DNA of 64,000 nt from Escherichia coli (GCF_013315695.1 NZ_CP054353.1); one strand, 5' to 3'; positions 52,895 to 64,000 are shown, numbered from the stretch's first letter. The notes: generated by a model not told the origin, from the sequence alone. Program-made: numbers and translations.

Positions 52895-53726
<832 letters not shown>

Positions 53727-53820
53727 ATCTGTGCATTTTTTGCGAGCCGCTTTCCCGTTTTTCCATCACCTCATTGCTGACCTTTCCTTTTCTTCTTACC
53801 GTTGAGAAAAAGGAGTCGCT

Positions 53821-54318
53821 ATGTCTGAATATCGTCGTTATTACATCAAGGGGGGAACATGGTTTTTCACGATAAATTTGCGGAATCGTCGAAGCCAACT
53901 TTTGACCACCCAGTACCAGACGCTCCGTAACGCCATTGTTAAAGTTAAGCGAGCCAGACCTTTTGAAATTAACGCCTGGGTAGTCTTGCCAGAGCATATG
54001 CACTGTATCTGGACATTACCTGAAAGCGATGATGATTTTTCCTCTCGCTGGCGTGAGATTAAAAAACAGTTCACTCAAACTTGCGAAATGAAAAATATCT
54101 GGCAACCGCGTTTTTGGGAGCACGCCATCCGCAATACCAAAGATTATCGCCATCATGTTGATTATATTTATATAAATCCAGTAAAACATGGCTGGGTAAA
54201 GCAAGTGAGTGATTGGCCATTCTCAACGTTCCATCGCGATGTCGCGAAAGGGTTATATCCCATCGATTGGGCGGGGGACGTAACGGATTTAAATGCTGGC
54301 GAGCGTATTATTTTATAA
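53821..54318 (+). CDS. rayT: REP-associated tyrosine transposase
   Basis: 165-aa ORF (IS200/IS605 TnpA-like) flanked on both sides by REP sequences. Confidence 0.9.
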   Translation: MSEYRRYYIKGGTWFFTINLRNRRSQLLTTQYQTLRNAIVKVKRARPFEINAWVVLPEHMHCIWTLPESDDDFSSRWREIKKQFTQTCEMKNIWQPRFWEHAIRNTKDYRHHVDYIYINPVKHGWVKQVSDWPFSTFHRDVAKGLYPIDWAGDVTDLNAGERIIL

Positions 54319-54326
54319 TTGTGCGC

Positions 54327-54436
54327 TGATGCCGGATGCGCTTACGCTTATCCAGCCTACGAATCGTGCCTTAACAGTAGGACGGATAAGGCGTTTACGC
54401 CGCATCCGGCAGTTGTGCACCGGTGCCGGATACCTA
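54327..54436. repeat. REP/BIME palindromic elements
   Basis: tgccggatgcgcttacgcttatccagcctac ... gtaggacggataaggcgtttacgccgcatccggc. Confidence 0.8.
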
Positions 54437-59451: not shown

Positions 59452-59819
59452 GGTGCCAGGTCGTTGATATCGCGGGTGTTAAACTCCAGCACGCGCAGGC
59501 CGTACTTCTCGTTGACCACCACCACTTCCGCTTTGCCCAGCAGGATATTGTTCACTTTAATATCCAGCGGCTCCCCGGCGAGTTTATCCAGCTCAATCAC
59601 CGTGTCGTCGTCGATGTTAAGCAGGTCGGCTAACATAATTTCCACCGACGACACTTCCAGCGTTAAGGTCACCGGAATGCGTTTCAGCAGCGTCATCGAG
59701 TCGGAAAAGCGGTCTTCCAGGCGGGTGACCAGCGTTTCGGCGTCGGCGGATTTCGTGACAGGCGCAACTTCATCGGCGAGGCCAAAATCCCCGGCTAAAA
59801 TATCGTCTTGTTTACTCAT
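59448..59819 (-). CDS. lfiN: Flagellar switch protein, FliN homologue
   Basis: About 124 aa from the internal Met, with C-terminal SpoA-like domain; the supplied ORF extends to 59879 and would overlap lfiM by 68 bp. Confidence 0.78.
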   Translation of the reverse strand: MSKQDDILAGDFGLADEVAPVTKSADAETLVTRLEDRFSDSMTLLKRIPVTLTLEVSSVEIMLADLLNIDDDTVIELDKLAGEPLDIKVNNILLGKAEVVVVNEKYGLRVLEFNTRDINDLAP

Positions 59820-60663
59820 GGCTATTCTCATTCTTGCCCGCCAGCTCCGACAAAAACAGTTTGTCTTTGTCTTCCACAATCAGGGCGCTAAATAATTCAG
59901 ATTGCCCAATCGCCACCGGGAACGTTTCTCCCAGCGAGATGGGTAAAATATCCCCGGCTTTTATCTGCGCCAGATCGGCGACATTCATCGATAGCTCGGC
60001 GATTTTGACGTTCAGGGTCAGCGGCAGGGAGCGGATGATTTCTTTAATCAGGGCCGGTTTATTAACGGATTTCGCCACCTGCTGCGGTTTACTGTGCTCG
60101 CTGTGGCGGATCAGATTCAAAATAAAATCGGTGTGGGCGTCGTCGAGCAAAATACGAAAACTGCTCTCTTCATCGCCCGCAAGGGTAAAGGTTAATTGAT
60201 ACGCCCAGTGGGTAATCACCGTGCTGCTGTCCAGTTTTAATTTCAGCGCAATACCGGAGGTTTGCAGATTAAAGATCAGCGTGCAGATATCCAGCGCGAG
60301 TCGGTTCTTTAACCGCGTTTCGGTTTTGGTCGGCAGCCCGTTATGCGCTTTCGCCTCTTCAAGAGAGGACTCCAGACCATAAAAATTGCCCAGCAGCATT
60401 AACAGCAAGGAGCGATCAATATCAAACGCCAGATGCCCGACCTGGGAAACCATCAGTTCGGCGTTTTTATTAATAATATCCATTTCGCAGCCAATCTTTT
60501 TTAGGGTGATATTGCTGCGATGCTTTTTGAGAAAGTAGCTGCCAAGATGCGAATCAATCACGTCAAAATTCCCCGTAAACAGGGTCGGCAGGCGATGGTA
60601 GGGGCGTCCGAGCCGATTACCTTCTAATTTAAAGATGCCTGGCGTTTTACTGTACTTCAGCAT
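59812..60663 (-). CDS. lfiM: Flagellar switch protein, FliM homologue
   Basis: 283-aa ORF at the head of the minus-strand lfiMNPQR-lfhBA block. Confidence 0.75.
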   Translation of the reverse strand: MLKYSKTPGIFKLEGNRLGRPYHRLPTLFTGNFDVIDSHLGSYFLKKHRSNITLKKIGCEMDIINKNAELMVSQVGHLAFDIDRSLLLMLLGNFYGLESSLEEAKAHNGLPTKTETRLKNRLALDICTLIFNLQTSGIALKLKLDSSTVITHWAYQLTFTLAGDEESSFRILLDDAHTDFILNLIRHSEHSKPQQVAKSVNKPALIKEIIRSLPLTLNVKIAELSMNVADLAQIKAGDILPISLGETFPVAIGQSELFSALIVEDKDKLFLSELAGKNENSHE

Positions 60664-60842
60664 GGCTTACTTTCTCTGCTGTAATGGTATGGGCGTTGTT
60701 GTGCACGCAAATCCGGCAGTGACACAAGGTGAGGTATTAAATAGAGGGGGCGTGAAAGGGGCAAATTATTAATAGGGTGAAAAAATAATTAAATTATTAA
60801 AGGGCGAGGTATCGGGCATCGTCATAAAACATTGCACGAATT

Positions 60843-60925
60843 GTAGGCCTGATAAGAGGCGCAGCGTCGCATCAGGCATCGGTGCACAATTGCCGGATGG
60901 CGGCGTAAACGCCTTATCCGGCCTA
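60843..60925. repeat. REP/BIME palindromic elements in the lfiM-lafK divergent intergenic region
   Basis: gtaggcctgataagaggcgcagcgtcgcatcaggc and gccggatggcggcgtaaacgccttatccggcctac. Confidence 0.8.
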
Positions 60926-61050
60926 CGGTTCTAACTCATTGTTTATCAACAAATAATATTTTTATTATCGTTTAATTCGAACTTGTTAATCCCGCCGGTG
61001 ATACGCTTCAGAACATCCTGTTTTCTGTCGCTACTTATATCGTTCACCCT

Positions 61051-62037
61051 ATGTCTGAACTTATTGCAACTGCCGCTTCCAGCATTAACGCTTTTACTCT
61101 GGCAAAGCGTGTCGCCGCCTTTAACGTGCCGGTGCTCATTCAGGGCGAAACCGGCGCGGGCAAAGAATGCGTGGCGAAATATATTCACACCGTAGCCTTT
61201 GGTGAAAATGAAAGCGCACCCTATGTCGGCGTGAACTGCGCGGCGATCCCGGAAAATATGCTGGAATCCACGCTATTTGGCTATGACAAAGGCGCATTTA
61301 CCGGCGCAATTGCCAGCGTGCCAGGAAAAATGGAACTGGCAAATAACGGCTCCTTATTGCTCGATGAAATTGGTGAAATGCCGCTGGCGCTACAGGCCAA
61401 AATATTACGCGTGTTGCAGGAACAACAGGTTGAGCGATTAGGCAGCAACCGACAAATCAAACTCAATTTTCGCCTGATTGCCTGCACCAATAAAAACCTG
61501 GAGCAGGAAGTTGCCGCCGGACGTTTTCGTGAAGATCTCTATTATCGTCTGGCGGTTATCCCTATTACCATGCCGCCACTGCGTGAACGCCTGAACGATA
61601 TTATTCCGCTGGCGGAGTCATTTATTAAAAAATACTCCACGGTGCTGGTGAAAAATATCACCCTGTCCGAATCCACCCGCCGTGCGCTGCTTAATTACCG
61701 CTGGCCCGGTAACGTGCGCCAACTGGAAAACGCCATTCAGCGGGGAATGATTTTAAATCGCGACGGCGTAATTTACCCGGATGCATTAGGCCTGCTGGAA
61801 ACGGACGTTGCTGACCACAGCGAACTGCAATGGCCTGTTCAGCCCGCCGTCCACATTGCCGAAACCAGCGATTTGGGCCAGCACGGACGAAGCGCGCAAT
61901 ATCAATATATCGCCGACCTGATGCGTAAATATCAGGGCAACCGCAGCAAAATCGCCGACCTGTTAGGCATTACCCCGCGCGCACTGCGCTATCGACTGGC
62001 CTCCATGCGCAAGCAAGGTATCGAAGTTTTCTCCTGA
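61051..62037 (+). CDS. lafK: Sigma54-dependent transcriptional activator (AAA+ and HTH domains only)
   Basis: 328-aa ORF; Walker A GETGAGKE at about residue 32, GAFTGA sigma54-contact motif, C-terminal HTH; no receiver or other N-terminal domain. Confidence 0.8.
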   Translation: MSELIATAASSINAFTLAKRVAAFNVPVLIQGETGAGKECVAKYIHTVAFGENESAPYVGVNCAAIPENMLESTLFGYDKGAFTGAIASVPGKMELANNGSLLLDEIGEMPLALQAKILRVLQEQQVERLGSNRQIKLNFRLIACTNKNLEQEVAAGRFREDLYYRLAVIPITMPPLRERLNDIIPLAESFIKKYSTVLVKNITLSESTRRALLNYRWPGNVRQLENAIQRGMILNRDGVIYPDALGLLETDVADHSELQWPVQPAVHIAETSDLGQHGRSAQYQYIADLMRKYQGNRSKIADLLGITPRALRYRLASMRKQGIEVFS

Positions 62038-62051
62038 CCCGGAAGTTAAAA

Positions 62052-62393
62052 ATGAGCATTACCACAATCAACAGCACCATGCAGGCGCAAATCATGCAGG
62101 ACGTGCAGCGGATGCAGGCCAACGCCCAGGCACCGGTGCTGCCCGCCATGACCTTCAGTTCCACCGACCCGGACGTTTCGTTTAACCGCATTATGAGCGG
62201 TGCGCTCGGTCATGTTGACCAGTTCCAGCAGGTGGCGGAGCAGCAGCAAACGGCTGTCGACACGGGCAAAAGTGATGACCTTGCCGGGGCGATGATCGCC
62301 AGCCAGCAGGCGTCGCTCTCTTTCTCCGCGCTGGTGCAGGTGCGCAACAAAATCGCCACCGGATTTAACGATCTGATGAGTATGTCGATCTAA
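62052..62393 (+). CDS. lfiE: Flagellar hook-basal body protein, FliE homologue
   Basis: 113-aa ORF with conserved FliE C-terminus (...VQVRNKIATGFNDLMSMSI). Confidence 0.8.
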   Translation: MSITTINSTMQAQIMQDVQRMQANAQAPVLPAMTFSSTDPDVSFNRIMSGALGHVDQFQQVAEQQQTAVDTGKSDDLAGAMIASQQASLSFSALVQVRNKIATGFNDLMSMSI

Positions 62394-62397
62394 CCCT

Positions 62398-64000
62398 ATG
62401 AATGCACAAATAAAGAAGTTAACCCAGGCGTTTCCGGCGTTTCGACTGCGTCTTGCAGATAACAAACGCTGGGCATTGATGGCGGGAGTGGGGCTTGCCG
62501 TTGCGGCGACGGCGATTATCGTCAGCGTACTGTGGACCGGTAATCGCGGCTACGTCTCGCTCTACGGACGCCAGGAAAATCTGCCCGTGTCGCAGATTGT
62601 CACCGTGCTGGATGGCGAAAAGCTCAGCTACCGCATCGACCCGCAAAGCGGGCAGATTCTGGTGCCGGAAGATGAACTGTCGAAAACGCGCATGACCCTT
62701 GCTGCCAAAGGCGTGCAGGCGATCTTGCCCAGCGGCTACGAGCTGATGGACAAAGACGAAGTGCTCGGCAGCAGCCAGTTCGTGCAGAACGTGCGCTACA
62801 AACGCAGCCTCGAAGGGGAGCTGGCGCAGAGCATTATGTCGCTGGACGCGGTGGAGAGCGCGCGGGTGCATCTGGCGCTCAACGAAGAGAGCTCGTTTGT
62901 GGTCAGCGATGAGCCGCAAAACAGCGCCTCGGTGGTGGTGCGTCTGCATTACGGCGCGAAGCTGAATATGGACCAGGTGAACGCCATTGTGCATCTGGTT
63001 TCCGGCAGCATTCCGGGGCTGCACGCCAGCAAAGTTAGCGTCGTCGATCAGGCGGGAAATCTGCTGACCGACGGCATTGGCGCGGGCGAAGCGGTTTCAG
63101 CCGCTACCCGTAAACGCGATCAGATCCTCAAAGATATTCAGGACAAAACCCGCGCCAGCGTGGCGAACGTGCTGGATTCGCTGGTCGGCAGCGGGAATTA
63201 CCGCGTCAGCGTCATGCCGGATCTCGACCTCAGTAATATCGATGAAACTCAGGAACACTACGGCGACGCGCCGAAAATCAACCGCGAAGAAAACGTGCTG
63301 GACAGCGATACCAATCAGGTGGCGATGGGTGTGCCCGGTTCGCTTAGCAACCGCCCGCCGGTTGCACCTAATCAGGTTACTAACGGCGCGATGCCCGCCG
63401 ACGAAAATCGCTCGCCGGAAGCCCTTTCGAAACACAGCGAAAGCAAGCGCGATTACTCTTACGACCGCAGCGTCCAGCATATTCAGCATCCCAGCTTTAC
63501 GGTGAAACGCCTCAACGTGGCGGTGGTGCTCAATCAAAACGCTCCGGCGCTGAAAAACTGGAAGCCGGAGCAGACCACGCAGCTTACCGCGCTGCTGAAC
63601 AATGCCGCCGGGATCGACGCGCAACGTGGAGACAATCTCACCTTATCGCTGCTTAACTTTGTCCCGCAGGCGGTGCCGGTCGAACCAATTATTCCGTTGT
63701 GGAAAGATGACAGCGTGCTGGCCTGGGTGCGGCTGATTGGCTGCGGCCTGCTGGCGCTGTTGTTGCTGTTCTTTGTGGTGCGCCCGGTAATGAAACGACT
63801 GACGGCGGTACGTGCGCCGGTTATCACACCAGAACCGGAAGCTGTCAGCGAACCGTGGATTGCCATGCCGGAAGAGGAACGCAAAAACGTCGATCTGCCG
63901 TCGCTGCCCGGCGATGACAGCCTGCCGTCCCAGAGTTCCGGCCTCGAAGTAAAACTCGAGTTCCTGCAAAAACTGGCCATGAGCGACACCGATCGCGTAG
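62398..64000 (+). CDS. lfiF: Flagellar MS-ring protein, FliF homologue (3-prime end cut by window edge)
   Basis: Open frame from the ATG at 62398 to the window end (over 530 codons) with N-terminal and late transmembrane segments typical of FliF; absent from the supplied ORF track, presumably because no stop codon lies inside the window. Confidence 0.8.
   Translation, partial: MNAQIKKLTQAFPAFRLRLADNKRWALMAGVGLAVAATAIIVSVLWTGNRGYVSLYGRQENLPVSQIVTVLDGEKLSYRIDPQSGQILVPEDELSKTRMTLAAKGVQAILPSGYELMDKDEVLGSSQFVQNVRYKRSLEGELAQSIMSLDAVESARVHLALNEESSFVVSDEPQNSASVVVRLHYGAKLNMDQVNAIVHLVSGSIPGLHASKVSVVDQAGNLLTDGIGAGEAVSAATRKRDQILKDIQDKTRASVANVLDSLVGSGNYRVSVMPDLDLSNIDETQEHYGDAPKINREENVLDSDTNQVAMGVPGSLSNRPPVAPNQVTNGAMPADENRSPEALSKHSESKRDYSYDRSVQHIQHPSFTVKRLNVAVVLNQNAPALKNWKPEQTTQLTALLNNAAGIDAQRGDNLTLSLLNFVPQAVPVEPIIPLWKDDSVLAWVRLIGCGLLALLLLFFVVRPVMKRLTAVRAPVITPEPEAVSEPWIAMPEEERKNVDLPSLPGDDSLPSQSSGLEVKLEFLQKLAMSDTDRV

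What the first reader, a model, noticed from the sequence alone, without database searches (positions are those of the whole stretch)
61051..62037. The Flag-2 sigma54 activator lacks any N-terminal regulatory domain
The ORF starts 31 codons before the Walker A motif (GETGAGKE) and contains only the AAA+ sigma54-interaction domain (GAFTGA present) and a C-terminal HTH. The reading frame has a stop at 60973..60975 and no alternative start between it and the ATG at 61051, so a longer N-terminus cannot be encoded in this strain. A REP cluster lies just upstream (60843..60925). Either the activator is naturally domain-less, which in other sigma54 activators means constitutive activity controlled by partner proteins or expression level, or an N-terminal domain has been lost.
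Basis: partly seen in the sequence, partly recalled or inferred. Interest (0 to 1): 0.5.

Follow-up and report, generated by a model that had tools for sequence, protein, structure and literature searches.

The report
Receiver-less LafK activator of Flag-2
The regulator of E. coli's second (Flag-2) flagellar gene set really does lack an N-terminal sensor domain, but every enterobacterial copy is built this way, so it is the normal form and not a defect of this strain.

Summary
ORF 61051..62037 (+) encodes a 328-aa sigma54 activator made of an AAA+ domain (Walker A at residues 32-39, GAFTGA at 81-86), a lid and a Fis-type HTH. An in-frame TAA lies at 60973-75 and a REP pair lies upstream.

This is LafK of the Flag-2 locus. 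The same 987-nt CDS is annotated in other E. coli, and 1277 of 5426 complete genomes hold the stretch. Orthologues in at least 12 enterobacterial genera are 324-348 aa with the same domains. The gene is under strong purifying selection (dN/dS 0.065), and conservation with Citrobacter begins exactly at the ATG.

Syntenic LafK proteins of Aeromonas, Vibrio, Photobacterium and Shewanella are 420-477 aa and carry a degenerate receiver-like N-domain. The absence is thus a trait of the whole enterobacterial clade, probably an old loss. No remnant is left upstream.

The likely mode of action is a constitutively competent activator whose dose sets its output. It would act at consensus sigma54 promoters before lfgB, lafB and a fliB-like gene. 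Each promoter is preceded by GGAAA-N6-TTCCGCC, a motif also found before lateral fliD in two Vibrionaceae.

LafK was already listed with PspF and HrpRS as a domain-less activator. Interest is low.

The parts
61051..62037 (+). lafK CDS: 328-aa receiver-less sigma54 enhancer-binding protein of the Flag-2 locus
   Evidence: ORF. Pfam domains. RefSeq CDS WP_001570963.1 in the identical genome. dN/dS is 0.065 against a second E. coli lineage.
61066..61566 (+). AAA+ sigma54-interaction domain (residues 6-172)
   Evidence: PF00158, E 1.2e-63, model positions 3-167 of 168. The best solved relative is the AAA+ domain of a chain deposited as 'Flagellar regulatory protein C' (FlrC), 4qhs.
61144..61167 (+). 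Walker A GETGAGKE (residues 32-39)
   Evidence: Translation. G35, G37, K38 and E39 are invariant in alignment A1.
61291..61308 (+). GAFTGA sigma54-contact loop (residues 81-86)
   Evidence: Translation. G81, T84, G85 and A86 are invariant in A1.
61363..61368 (+). Walker B Asp-Glu (D105, E106)
   Evidence: Invariant in A1.
61582..61788 (+). AAA+ lid domain (residues 178-246)
   Evidence: PF25601, E 1e-19.
61900..62001 (+). Fis-type HTH_8 DNA-binding domain (residues 284-317)
   Evidence: PF02954, E 2e-8. The recognition-helix residues R310, L312, R313 and Y314 are invariant across enterobacterial, Aeromonas, Vibrionaceae and FleR sequences.
60973..60975 (+). In-frame TAA that closes the lafK frame upstream of the start codon
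   Evidence: Sequence. Conserved in the divergent E. coli lineage.
60664..61050 (.). Divergent lfiM-lafK intergenic region (44% GC)
   Evidence: No recognisable sigma54 promoter and no strict sigma70-like promoter. No receiver-domain remnant. Outside the REP it is more conserved between E. coli lineages than lafK synonymous sites.
60838..60931 (.). REP pair (BIME-like), two inverted REP units
   Evidence: Inverted arms 60838-56 and 60913-31, and an internal palindrome. The stretch matches thousands of E. coli genomes, which hold several matching places each. It is present at the same place in the other Flag-2 lineage.
59812..60663 (-). lfiM (FliM-like switch protein), first gene of the divergent lfiMNPQR-lfhBA block
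   Evidence: ORF. RefSeq annotation.
62052..62393 (+). lfiE (FliE), 14 nt downstream of lafK, so probably co-transcribed with it
   Evidence: The activator gene lies directly upstream of fliE in every lateral cluster examined.
62398..64000 (+). lfiF (FliF), cut by the end of the window
   Evidence: RefSeq annotation mapped from L003 with offset 49507.

Best explanation
The ORF is LafK, the sigma54-dependent activator encoded in the Flag-2 (lateral-type) flagellar locus of E. coli.

It is a naturally receiver-less enhancer-binding protein. The polypeptide begins at the first residues of the AAA+ domain and ends with a Fis-type HTH, the same layout as PspF. This layout is fixed in the whole enterobacterial Flag-2 clade and is under purifying selection.

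Its syntenic counterparts in Aeromonas, Vibrio, Photobacterium and Shewanella carry an extra N-terminal receiver-like domain that is already degenerate. The enterobacterial form is therefore most simply read as the end point of an old domain loss from a FlrC/FleR-type response regulator.

Inferred mechanism: with no cis-acting regulatory domain, and no kinase gene annotated anywhere in the locus, LafK should assemble and hydrolyse ATP whenever it is made. Control then lies in lafK expression, from the conserved, AT-rich lfiM-lafK intergenic region that lacks a sigma54 promoter. LafK would bind as a dimer to the inverted repeat GGAAA-N6-TTCC(GCC), which sits 37-48 nt upstream of the -24 element. 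From there it would remodel sigma54 holoenzyme at the lfgB, lafB and fliB-like promoters.

Shown: architecture, conservation, synteny, promoters, motif co-occurrence.
Inferred: constitutive activity, dose control, motif as the LafK binding site, and direction of change (loss rather than gain).
For: Architecture: Pfam finds only Sigma54_activat, AAA_lid_14 and HTH_8, and the AAA+ match starts at model position 3. The protein is colinear with the PspF model, residues 3-315 against positions 7-319 of 329.

Normal form: 1277 of 5426 complete E. coli genomes hold the whole stretch. RefSeq annotates a 987-nt CDS in the two records examined. Orthologues in at least 12 other enterobacterial genera are 324-348 aa with the same Pfam set.

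Selection and start codon: dN/dS is 0.065 at dS 0.217 between two E. coli lineages. Similarity with Citrobacter starts exactly at the ATG.

Synteny: the activator gene sits directly upstream of fliE in E. coli, Hafnia, Citrobacter, Budvicia, Aeromonas hydrophila and a Vibrio marisflavi-like contig.

Long relatives: proteins that NCBI names LafK in Aeromonas are 420-460 aa and carry PF00072. Vibrio and Photobacterium proteins are 441-463 aa. E. coli M1 aligns at about residue 130 of these, where the AAA+ domain begins.

Degenerate receiver: Vibrio and Photobacterium have Ser at the phospho-acceptor position. Aeromonas keeps the Asp and Lys but lacks the acidic pair and the Thr.

Clade-wide trait: the enterobacterial clade has 100% bootstrap support and all its members are short. 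No receiver remnant lies upstream in five Flag-2 loci.

Targets: there is a perfect TGGCACGGCAATTGCT 37 nt before lfgB, TGGCACGCCTTTTGCC 32 nt before lafB, and CGGCACGCTTATTGCA 35 nt before a fliB-like gene. The lfgB and lafB sites were reported independently for E. coli PCN033 (PMC4578781).

Motif: GGAAA-N6-TTCCGCC precedes all three promoters. The combination of motif and promoter recurs before lateral fliD in Vibrio rotiferianus and Photobacterium galatheae, and before flgB in Enterobacteriaceae bacterium B14.

Literature: LafK is listed with PspF and HrpRS as an activator without a signal-recognition domain (PMC3162934).
Against: - No experiment here shows that E. coli LafK is active or constitutive. 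Flag-2 of ST131 strain EC958 was not expressed under laboratory conditions (PMC4637896).
- The NJ tree is unrooted, and its midpoint root falls on the enterobacterial branch. Loss versus gain of the N-domain therefore rests on parsimony with the wider family.
- On sequence identity alone, E. coli LafK is as close to Pseudomonas FleR (50%) as to Aeromonas LafK (49-51%). Orthology rests mainly on synteny.
- The motif was defined from the same three promoters it is said to mark. Only the cross-genus hits are independent. The exact pattern was found in a limited set of Flag-2-bearing species, and 8 matches lie in unrelated taxa with no flagellar homologue downstream.
- No promoter for lafK itself was identified.
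- The Francke et al. listing cites a V. parahaemolyticus paper, yet the Vibrio proteins seen here do have an N-terminal extension.
Confidence: 0.8

Rival explanations
1. The short form is a lesion of this strain or species. A deletion, a REP insertion or a frameshift removed an N-terminal domain, leaving a truncated and possibly defective activator.
For: A REP pair lies 126 nt upstream of the ATG. Relatives outside the Enterobacterales have an N-terminal domain.
Against: The same 328-aa CDS occurs in a lineage diverged by dS 0.22, with dN/dS 0.065. Lengths of 324-348 aa are seen in at least 12 other genera. tBLASTn finds no receiver remnant in five intergenic regions, with a best E of 0.2 on the wrong strand. 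Similarity with Citrobacter starts at the ATG.
Confidence: 0.01
2. LafK is not left to expression level alone. It is held in check after translation by a partner anti-activator, as PspA holds PspF or HrpV holds HrpS.
For: The best-studied receiver-less activators are controlled this way (established knowledge of PspF and HrpRS, which are grouped with LafK in PMC3162934). Intact Flag-2 loci stay silent in the laboratory. The locus holds uncharacterised genes such as lafZ and lafW.
Against: No candidate partner was identified or tested here. In V. parahaemolyticus and Aeromonas the published control of LafK is described at the transcriptional level (PMC4481668).
Confidence: 0.12
3. The receiver-less state is ancestral for the lateral-flagellar activator. 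The receiver-like domain of the Aeromonas, Vibrio and Shewanella proteins was gained or retained separately, so nothing was 'lost' in Enterobacterales.
For: The midpoint root of the NJ tree falls between the enterobacterial clade and all the others. Receiver-less activators next to fliE also exist in polar-type clusters of other Gammaproteobacteria.
Against: Both neighbouring clades carry N-terminal domains, as do most of the 150 best representatives of the family. The non-enteric N-domains look like decaying receivers rather than new acquisitions. The best structural relative is FlrC, a response regulator.
Confidence: 0.12
4. LafK and the whole Flag-2 locus are a decaying relic in E. coli, and the short activator is functionless.
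For: Flag-2 is deleted in K-12 and inactivated by a frameshift in strain 042 (PMC4578781). No LafA expression was seen in EC958.
Against: All Flag-2 genes of this genome are annotated intact, with no pseudogene flags. lafK has dN/dS 0.065. All catalytic motifs are intact. The target promoters are at or one base from consensus.
Confidence: 0.05

Closest known systems
LafK of the E. coli 042 Flag-2 locus and other enterobacterial Flag-2 loci (Ren et al. 2005; De Maayer et al. 2020, PMC6993521)
   Same: Same gene in the same position (lfhAB-lfiRQPNM-lafK-lfiEFGHIJ), between yafL/rayT and dinB. Same 328-aa length and domain set. Identity to other E. coli copies is 95-97%.
   Different: Nothing of substance. 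This window carries one of two E. coli allele lineages that differ by about 6% in nucleotides.
LafK of Aeromonas hydrophila and the lateral-cluster activators of Vibrio and Photobacterium
   Same: Syntenic, directly upstream of fliE of the lateral cluster. Identity over the AAA+ and HTH regions is 47-51%. The HTH recognition helix is conserved. Sigma54 promoters lie before flgB and fliD. The same GGAAA-N6-TTCCGCC element lies before lateral fliD in two Vibrionaceae.
   Different: These proteins are 420-477 aa, with an N-terminal receiver-like domain of about 105-130 residues that E. coli LafK lacks entirely.
PspF, and HrpR/HrpS: enhancer-binding proteins without a regulatory domain
   Same: Same architecture of AAA+ domain from residue 1 plus a C-terminal HTH. 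Colinear with the PspF model. Grouped together in the literature (PMC3162934).
   Different: Not orthologous. LafK scores 203 bits against the curated cut-off of 529 for NCBIfam PspF model PRK11608, and 236 against 444 for TIGR02974. No PspA- or HrpV-like partner is known for LafK. The regulon is flagellar.
FlrC / FleR, the response regulators of polar flagellar hierarchies
   Same: Best solved-structure match is the AAA+ domain of a chain deposited as 'Flagellar regulatory protein C', 4qhs (E 1e-74). The gene sits directly upstream of fliE as flrC/fleR does. Identity to Pseudomonas FleR is 50%.
   Different: No receiver domain, no phospho-acceptor Asp, and no adjacent histidine kinase gene.

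Membership tests
Bacterial enhancer-binding proteins (sigma54 activators, AAA+) | Sigma54-interaction AAA+ domain (PF00158) with Walker A and Walker B | tested here: met
   PF00158, E 1.2e-63, residues 6-172. GETGAGKE at 32-39 and D105-E106.
Bacterial enhancer-binding proteins (sigma54 activators, AAA+) | GAFTGA loop that contacts sigma54 | tested here: met
   GAFTGA at residues 81-86. Conserved in all 16 aligned sequences.
Bacterial enhancer-binding proteins (sigma54 activators, AAA+) | Sigma54-type (-24/-12) promoters at plausible target operons | tested here: met
   Sites matching 10-11 of 11 consensus positions lie 32-37 nt before lfgB, lafB and a fliB-like gene. One 11/11 site was found against 0.02 expected in shuffles. 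The lfgB and lafB sites were also reported in PMC4578781.
Bacterial enhancer-binding proteins (sigma54 activators, AAA+) | ATP-dependent open-complex formation with sigma54 holoenzyme | not testable with these tools
   Requires biochemistry or genetics.
Regulatory-domain-less enhancer-binding proteins (PspF / HrpRS type) | No domain N-terminal to the AAA+ module | tested here: met
   The AAA+ match starts at residue 6, model position 3. The upstream frame is closed by TAA. The same holds in at least 12 other genera.
Regulatory-domain-less enhancer-binding proteins (PspF / HrpRS type) | Control in trans by an anti-activator protein (PspA, HrpV) | not tested
   No partner was searched for. None is annotated as such in the locus.
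PspF orthologues | Score above the curated NCBIfam cut-off | tested here: not met
   PRK11608 scores 203 against a cut-off of 529. TIGR02974 scores 236 against 444.
LafK (lateral-flagellar sigma54 activator) | Encoded inside a lateral-type flagellar cluster, directly upstream of fliE | tested here: met
   Shown for E. coli, and for Aeromonas hydrophila. Shown for a Vibrio marisflavi-like contig, and for Hafnia, Citrobacter and Budvicia.
LafK (lateral-flagellar sigma54 activator) | N-terminal receiver-like domain as in the Aeromonas and Vibrio proteins | tested here: not met
   Absent in E. coli and in all enterobacterial orthologues. This separates an enterobacterial subtype from the others. 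It does not remove the protein from the syntenic orthologue group.
LafK (lateral-flagellar sigma54 activator) | Required for expression of lateral flagellar genes | not testable with these tools
   Needs a lafK mutant and reporter fusions.
FlrC / FleR two-component response regulators | Receiver domain with phospho-acceptor Asp, and a cognate kinase gene | tested here: not met
   No receiver domain. No histidine kinase is annotated in the 38-kb locus.

The most novel reading that the evidence does not exclude
Lacking any cis-regulatory domain, enterobacterial LafK might be kept inactive by an as yet unidentified partner protein, a PspA- or HrpV-like anti-activator encoded in or near Flag-2. 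Release of that brake, rather than transcription of lafK, would then be the unknown signal that turns on the otherwise silent Flag-2 flagella of E. coli.
Probability: 0.1. Interest if true: 0.5.

Novelty: already known. Interest (0 to 1): 0.2.

Why it matters
It matters little as a discovery. E. coli LafK, its sigma54-interaction domain and the sigma54 sites before lfgB and lafB are already in the literature and in RefSeq. Activators without a regulatory domain are also a recognised class that already lists LafK.

The useful by-products are modest:
- A clear statement that the receiver-less form is fixed across Enterobacterales, whereas the Aeromonas and Vibrio counterparts keep a degenerate receiver.
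- A testable candidate enhancer, GGAAA-N6-TTCCGCC, shared from Vibrionaceae to Enterobacteriaceae.
- The practical implication that ectopic lafK expression may be enough to wake up silent Flag-2 loci. That would help answer the open question of when E. coli uses this second flagellar system.

Tried and rejected
- Receiver-coding remnants: tBLASTn of ten receiver-like N-termini found nothing in the E. coli upstream region or in four other Flag-2 intergenic regions.
- Apparent receiver-bearing close homologues: P0050, P0070, P0118 and P0078 (61-73% identity) turned out to be in-frame chimeras. They join GlnG, TyrR or another regulator to the LafK C-terminus on short metagenome contigs, so they are not natural forms.
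- P0152, a 368-aa 'short' Vibrionaceae protein, is a truncated call of a 462-aa protein.
- Promoters for lafK: no sigma54 site scored above 7 of 11 in the lfiM-lafK intergenic region. The strict sigma70 and terminator scan found nothing.
- NCBIfam has no LafK model. All hits for both the E. coli and the Aeromonas proteins fall below cut-off.
- The representative-library search returned a very large, unnamed family. Cluster look-ups gave few names.
- Loci fetched around Hafnia, Citrobacter and Budvicia lafK did not reach the lfgB promoter, so they could not test motif conservation.
- Ren et al. 2005, Stewart and McCarter 2003, and Kim and McCarter 2004 are not held in the library.
- A first tree script timed out.

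Full report
**1. The observation**

An ATG at 61051 opens a 328-codon frame that ends at 62037. The frame is closed upstream by TAA at 60973-60975, and the 25 codons in between hold no ATG, GTG or TTG. Walker A (GETGAGKE) is residues 32-39, GAFTGA is residues 81-86, and Walker B Asp-Glu is residues 105-106.

Pfam finds Sigma54_activat at 6-172 (E 1e-63, starting at model position 3 of 168), AAA_lid_14 at 178-246 and HTH_8 at 284-317. It finds nothing else. The protein is colinear with the NCBIfam PspF model, residues 3-315 against profile positions 7-319 of 329. It scores far below that family's cut-off, 203 against 529.

The upstream REP cluster is real. Two inverted REP units lie within 60838-60931. 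That stretch alone matches thousands of E. coli genomes, which hold several matching places each.

**2. What the gene is**

The window is 100% identical over its last 14,493 nt to E. coli isolate AF3, NZ_OZ547117.1. There the ORF is annotated as a 987-nt 'sigma-54 interaction domain-containing protein'. It lies between a FliM-like gene on the opposite strand and fliE-fliF-fliG-fliH-fliI-fliJ.

The full locus runs from lfhA to lafU between rayT/yafL and dinB. [quoted passage not shown] The ORF is therefore lafK. No gene of the locus carries a pseudogene flag, and no histidine kinase is annotated in it.

**3. Is the short form peculiar to this strain?**

It is not. The evidence:

- 1277 of 5426 complete E. 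coli genomes hold the whole 60700-62100 stretch.
- A genome only 94.6% identical annotates the same 987-nt CDS.
- Between these two lineages lafK has dS 0.217 and dN 0.014, giving dN/dS 0.065. The ATG and the upstream TAA are both conserved.
- Against Citrobacter amalonaticus, nucleotide similarity is absent upstream and begins exactly at the ATG. This is the signature of a true start codon.
- Protein homologues at 58-97% identity come from Citrobacter, Leminorella, Enterobacter, Scandinavium, Pseudescherichia, Atlantibacter, Siccibacter, Budvicia, Pantoea, Paramixta, Hafnia, Pragia and Regiella. All are 324-348 aa with the same Pfam set.
- In Hafnia, Citrobacter, Budvicia and one unnamed contig, the gene sits in the same place between fliM and fliE.

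This is the normal form.

A few apparent exceptions are artefacts. P0050, P0070, P0118 and P0078 are in-frame chimeras that join GlnG, TyrR or another regulator to the LafK C-terminus on short metagenome contigs. P0009 and P0010 are frameshift or deletion fusions with FliE and FliG.

**4. Comparison with Vibrio and Aeromonas**

- Proteins that NCBI names 'lateral flagellar response regulator transcription factor LafK' in Aeromonas are 420-460 aa and carry a Pfam receiver hit.
- In A. hydrophila the gene is syntenic, in the order fliMNPQR-flhBA, lafK, fliEFGHIJ.
- A Vibrio marisflavi-like contig has motY-like, activator, fliEFGHIJ, and the full protein is 462-463 aa.
- Named Vibrio, Photobacterium, Enterovibrio and Grimontia proteins of this group are 441-463 aa. 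These include V. rotiferianus, V. diabolicus and V. coralliilyticus.
- Shewanella and Ferrimonas proteins are 431-435 aa.

In the alignment, E. coli M1 falls at about residue 130 of these proteins, where the AAA+ domain starts.

The extra domain is a degenerate receiver when measured against Pseudomonas FleR (D11, D12, D54, T82, K104). Vibrio and Photobacterium have Pro-Asn, Ser, Val and Arg at those positions, so they have no phospho-acceptor. Aeromonas keeps the Asp and the Lys but lacks the acidic pair and the Thr.

A neighbour-joining tree of the shared core gives three groups:

| Group | Bootstrap | N-terminal state |
|---|---|---|
| Enterobacterial clade | 100% | all short |
| Aeromonas / Vibrionaceae / Shewanella clade | 80% | all long |
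| FleR-type clade | 96% | mostly long |

No trace of receiver-coding sequence remains in the lfiM-lafK intergenic regions of five Flag-2 loci. The best tBLASTn E-value is 0.2, on the wrong strand, and the longest stop-free stretch is 62 codons.

My reading is that a FlrC/FleR-type response regulator became an orphan pseudo-receiver protein in lateral clusters. It then lost the domain entirely at or before the base of the enterobacterial Flag-2 lineage. The direction of change is inferred by parsimony, because the tree is not rooted.

**5. How it probably works**

All catalytic and sigma54-contact motifs are intact and invariant. The best solved relative is the AAA+ domain of a chain deposited as 'Flagellar regulatory protein C' (FlrC), 4qhs.

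In the full locus I found three intergenic sigma54 promoters at or one base from consensus:

| Promoter sequence | Position |
|---|---|
| TGGCACGGCAATTGCT | 37 nt before lfgB |
| TGGCACGCCTTTTGCC | 32 nt before lafB (fliD) |
| CGGCACGCTTATTGCA | 35 nt before a fliB-like gene in the variable region |

The first two were already reported for E. coli PCN033 (PMC4578781). RpoN-binding sites before flgB2, lafA and lafB are reported in V. parahaemolyticus (PMC9817140). Neither lfiM nor lafK has a recognisable sigma54 promoter.

Each of the three promoters is preceded, 37-48 nt upstream and in the same orientation, by GGAAA-N6-TTCCGCC, whose GGAAA and TTCC arms form an inverted repeat. This pattern was derived from these same three sites, so its enrichment in the locus is circular.

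An exact scan of about 100,000 species genomes for the motif plus promoter gave 23 matches on 21 stretches of DNA.

- Fifteen matches are followed by a homologue of flgB, fliD or the fliB-like gene. Thirteen of these are in Escherichia, Citrobacter, Pseudocitrobacter or Enterobacteriaceae bacterium B14, where flgB is 64% identical.
- The other two lie before the lateral fliD of Vibrio rotiferianus and Photobacterium galatheae, 35-36% identical, in the order lafA-fliD-fliS.
- Eight matches in unrelated taxa have no flagellar homologue downstream. My rough expectation for chance matches, assuming equal base frequencies, is about 3.5.

The HTH recognition helix is conserved between the E. coli and Vibrionaceae proteins. 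The repeat is thus a good candidate for the LafK enhancer.

With no regulatory domain and no kinase gene annotated in the locus, the simplest model is an activator that is competent whenever it is present. Its output would then be set by lafK expression. Consistent with this, the lfiM-lafK intergenic region outside the REP is more conserved between E. coli lineages than lafK synonymous sites. Control by a partner protein, as with PspA and PspF, cannot be excluded.

**6. Relation to what is known**

Francke et al. 2011 class LafK with PspF and HrpRS as activators that lack a signal-recognition domain (PMC3162934). E. coli LafK and its PF00158 domain are mentioned for PCN033. RefSeq annotates the 328-aa form routinely. 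The finding is therefore already known in substance.

The Francke listing cites a V. parahaemolyticus paper, whereas the Vibrio-group proteins seen here do carry a degenerate N-terminal extension. The label fits the enterobacterial proteins better than the Vibrio ones.

Flag-2 of ST131 strain EC958 was not expressed under laboratory conditions. It differs by about 6% in nucleotides from the locus of strain 042 (PMC4637896). This matches the two allele lineages seen.

**7. Verdict**

A strain-level loss or a sequencing error is excluded. Interest is low (0.2). This is an ordinary, conserved and previously catalogued architecture, with a modest comparative footnote and a testable enhancer candidate.

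Noticed in passing
Outside the window, same genome: L003 23751-23768 (+), 36862-36879 (+), 22210-22227 (-). Also L017 4026-4107 (-), L026 7104-7186 (+), L027 887-969 (-).: GGAAA-N6-TTCCGCC, whose GGAAA and TTCC arms form an inverted repeat, lies 37-48 nt upstream of each of the three sigma54 promoters of the Flag-2 locus. The same motif plus promoter precedes lateral fliD in Vibrio rotiferianus and Photobacterium galatheae, and flgB in Enterobacteriaceae bacterium B14. It is a candidate LafK enhancer.
   Followed up: partly
L003 22157-22172 (-), upstream of the gene at L003 21193-22122: A third near-consensus sigma54 promoter (CGGCACGCTTATTGCA) lies 35 nt before a gene annotated 'hypothetical'. 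Its Citrobacter and Hafnia counterparts carry the FliB_C (flagellin lysine methylase) Pfam domain. The PCN033 passage I read named only the lfgB and lafB sites.
   Followed up: partly
Proteins P0050, P0070, P0118, P0078: These are in-frame chimeras. The N-terminal part comes from GlnG (NtrC), TyrR or another response regulator, and the C-terminal part from E. coli LafK. The joins fall at conserved motifs (FREDLYYRL, PPLRER, WPGNVRQLEN). All are on 2-5 kb ENA metagenome contigs and are probably assembly artefacts. They could mislead a domain-architecture survey.
   Followed up: partly
window 60664-62037, compared with L002: E. coli carries two Flag-2 allele lineages about 6% apart (dS 0.22 in lafK). 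In the whole search, which includes REP-only matches, only 5 records have a best match at 99% identity or more. The lfiM-lafK intergenic region outside the REP is more conserved than lafK synonymous sites, which suggests regulatory constraint.
   Followed up: partly
window 53641-54410: A rayT (REP-associated tyrosine transposase) gene lies at 53821-54318, directly beside lfhA. It is flanked by REP copies at 53641-53674 and 54377-54410.
   Followed up: no
L008 7001-8038; L009 7001-8053; L005 6001-7011: Receiver-less activators of 336-350 aa sit directly upstream of fliE in polar-type clusters (flagellin-flaG-fliD-fliS-fleQ-...). These come from a Steroidobacteraceae MAG, a Pseudomonadales MAG and an unnamed metagenome contig. 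In the Pseudomonadales contig the gene follows a HisKA/HATPase kinase gene with only a 5-nt gap. Loss of the receiver from FleR-position activators seems to have happened more than once.
   Followed up: no
window 61030-61050: No Shine-Dalgarno-like sequence precedes the lafK ATG (tatatcgttcaccctATG). No sigma70-like or sigma54 promoter was detected in the 387-nt intergenic region. How lafK is transcribed and translated remains open.
   Followed up: partly
L003 24207-24638 (outside the window): lfgC (flgC) and all other Flag-2 genes are annotated intact in this genome. In strain 042, by contrast, lfgC is reported to be frameshifted.
   Followed up: no
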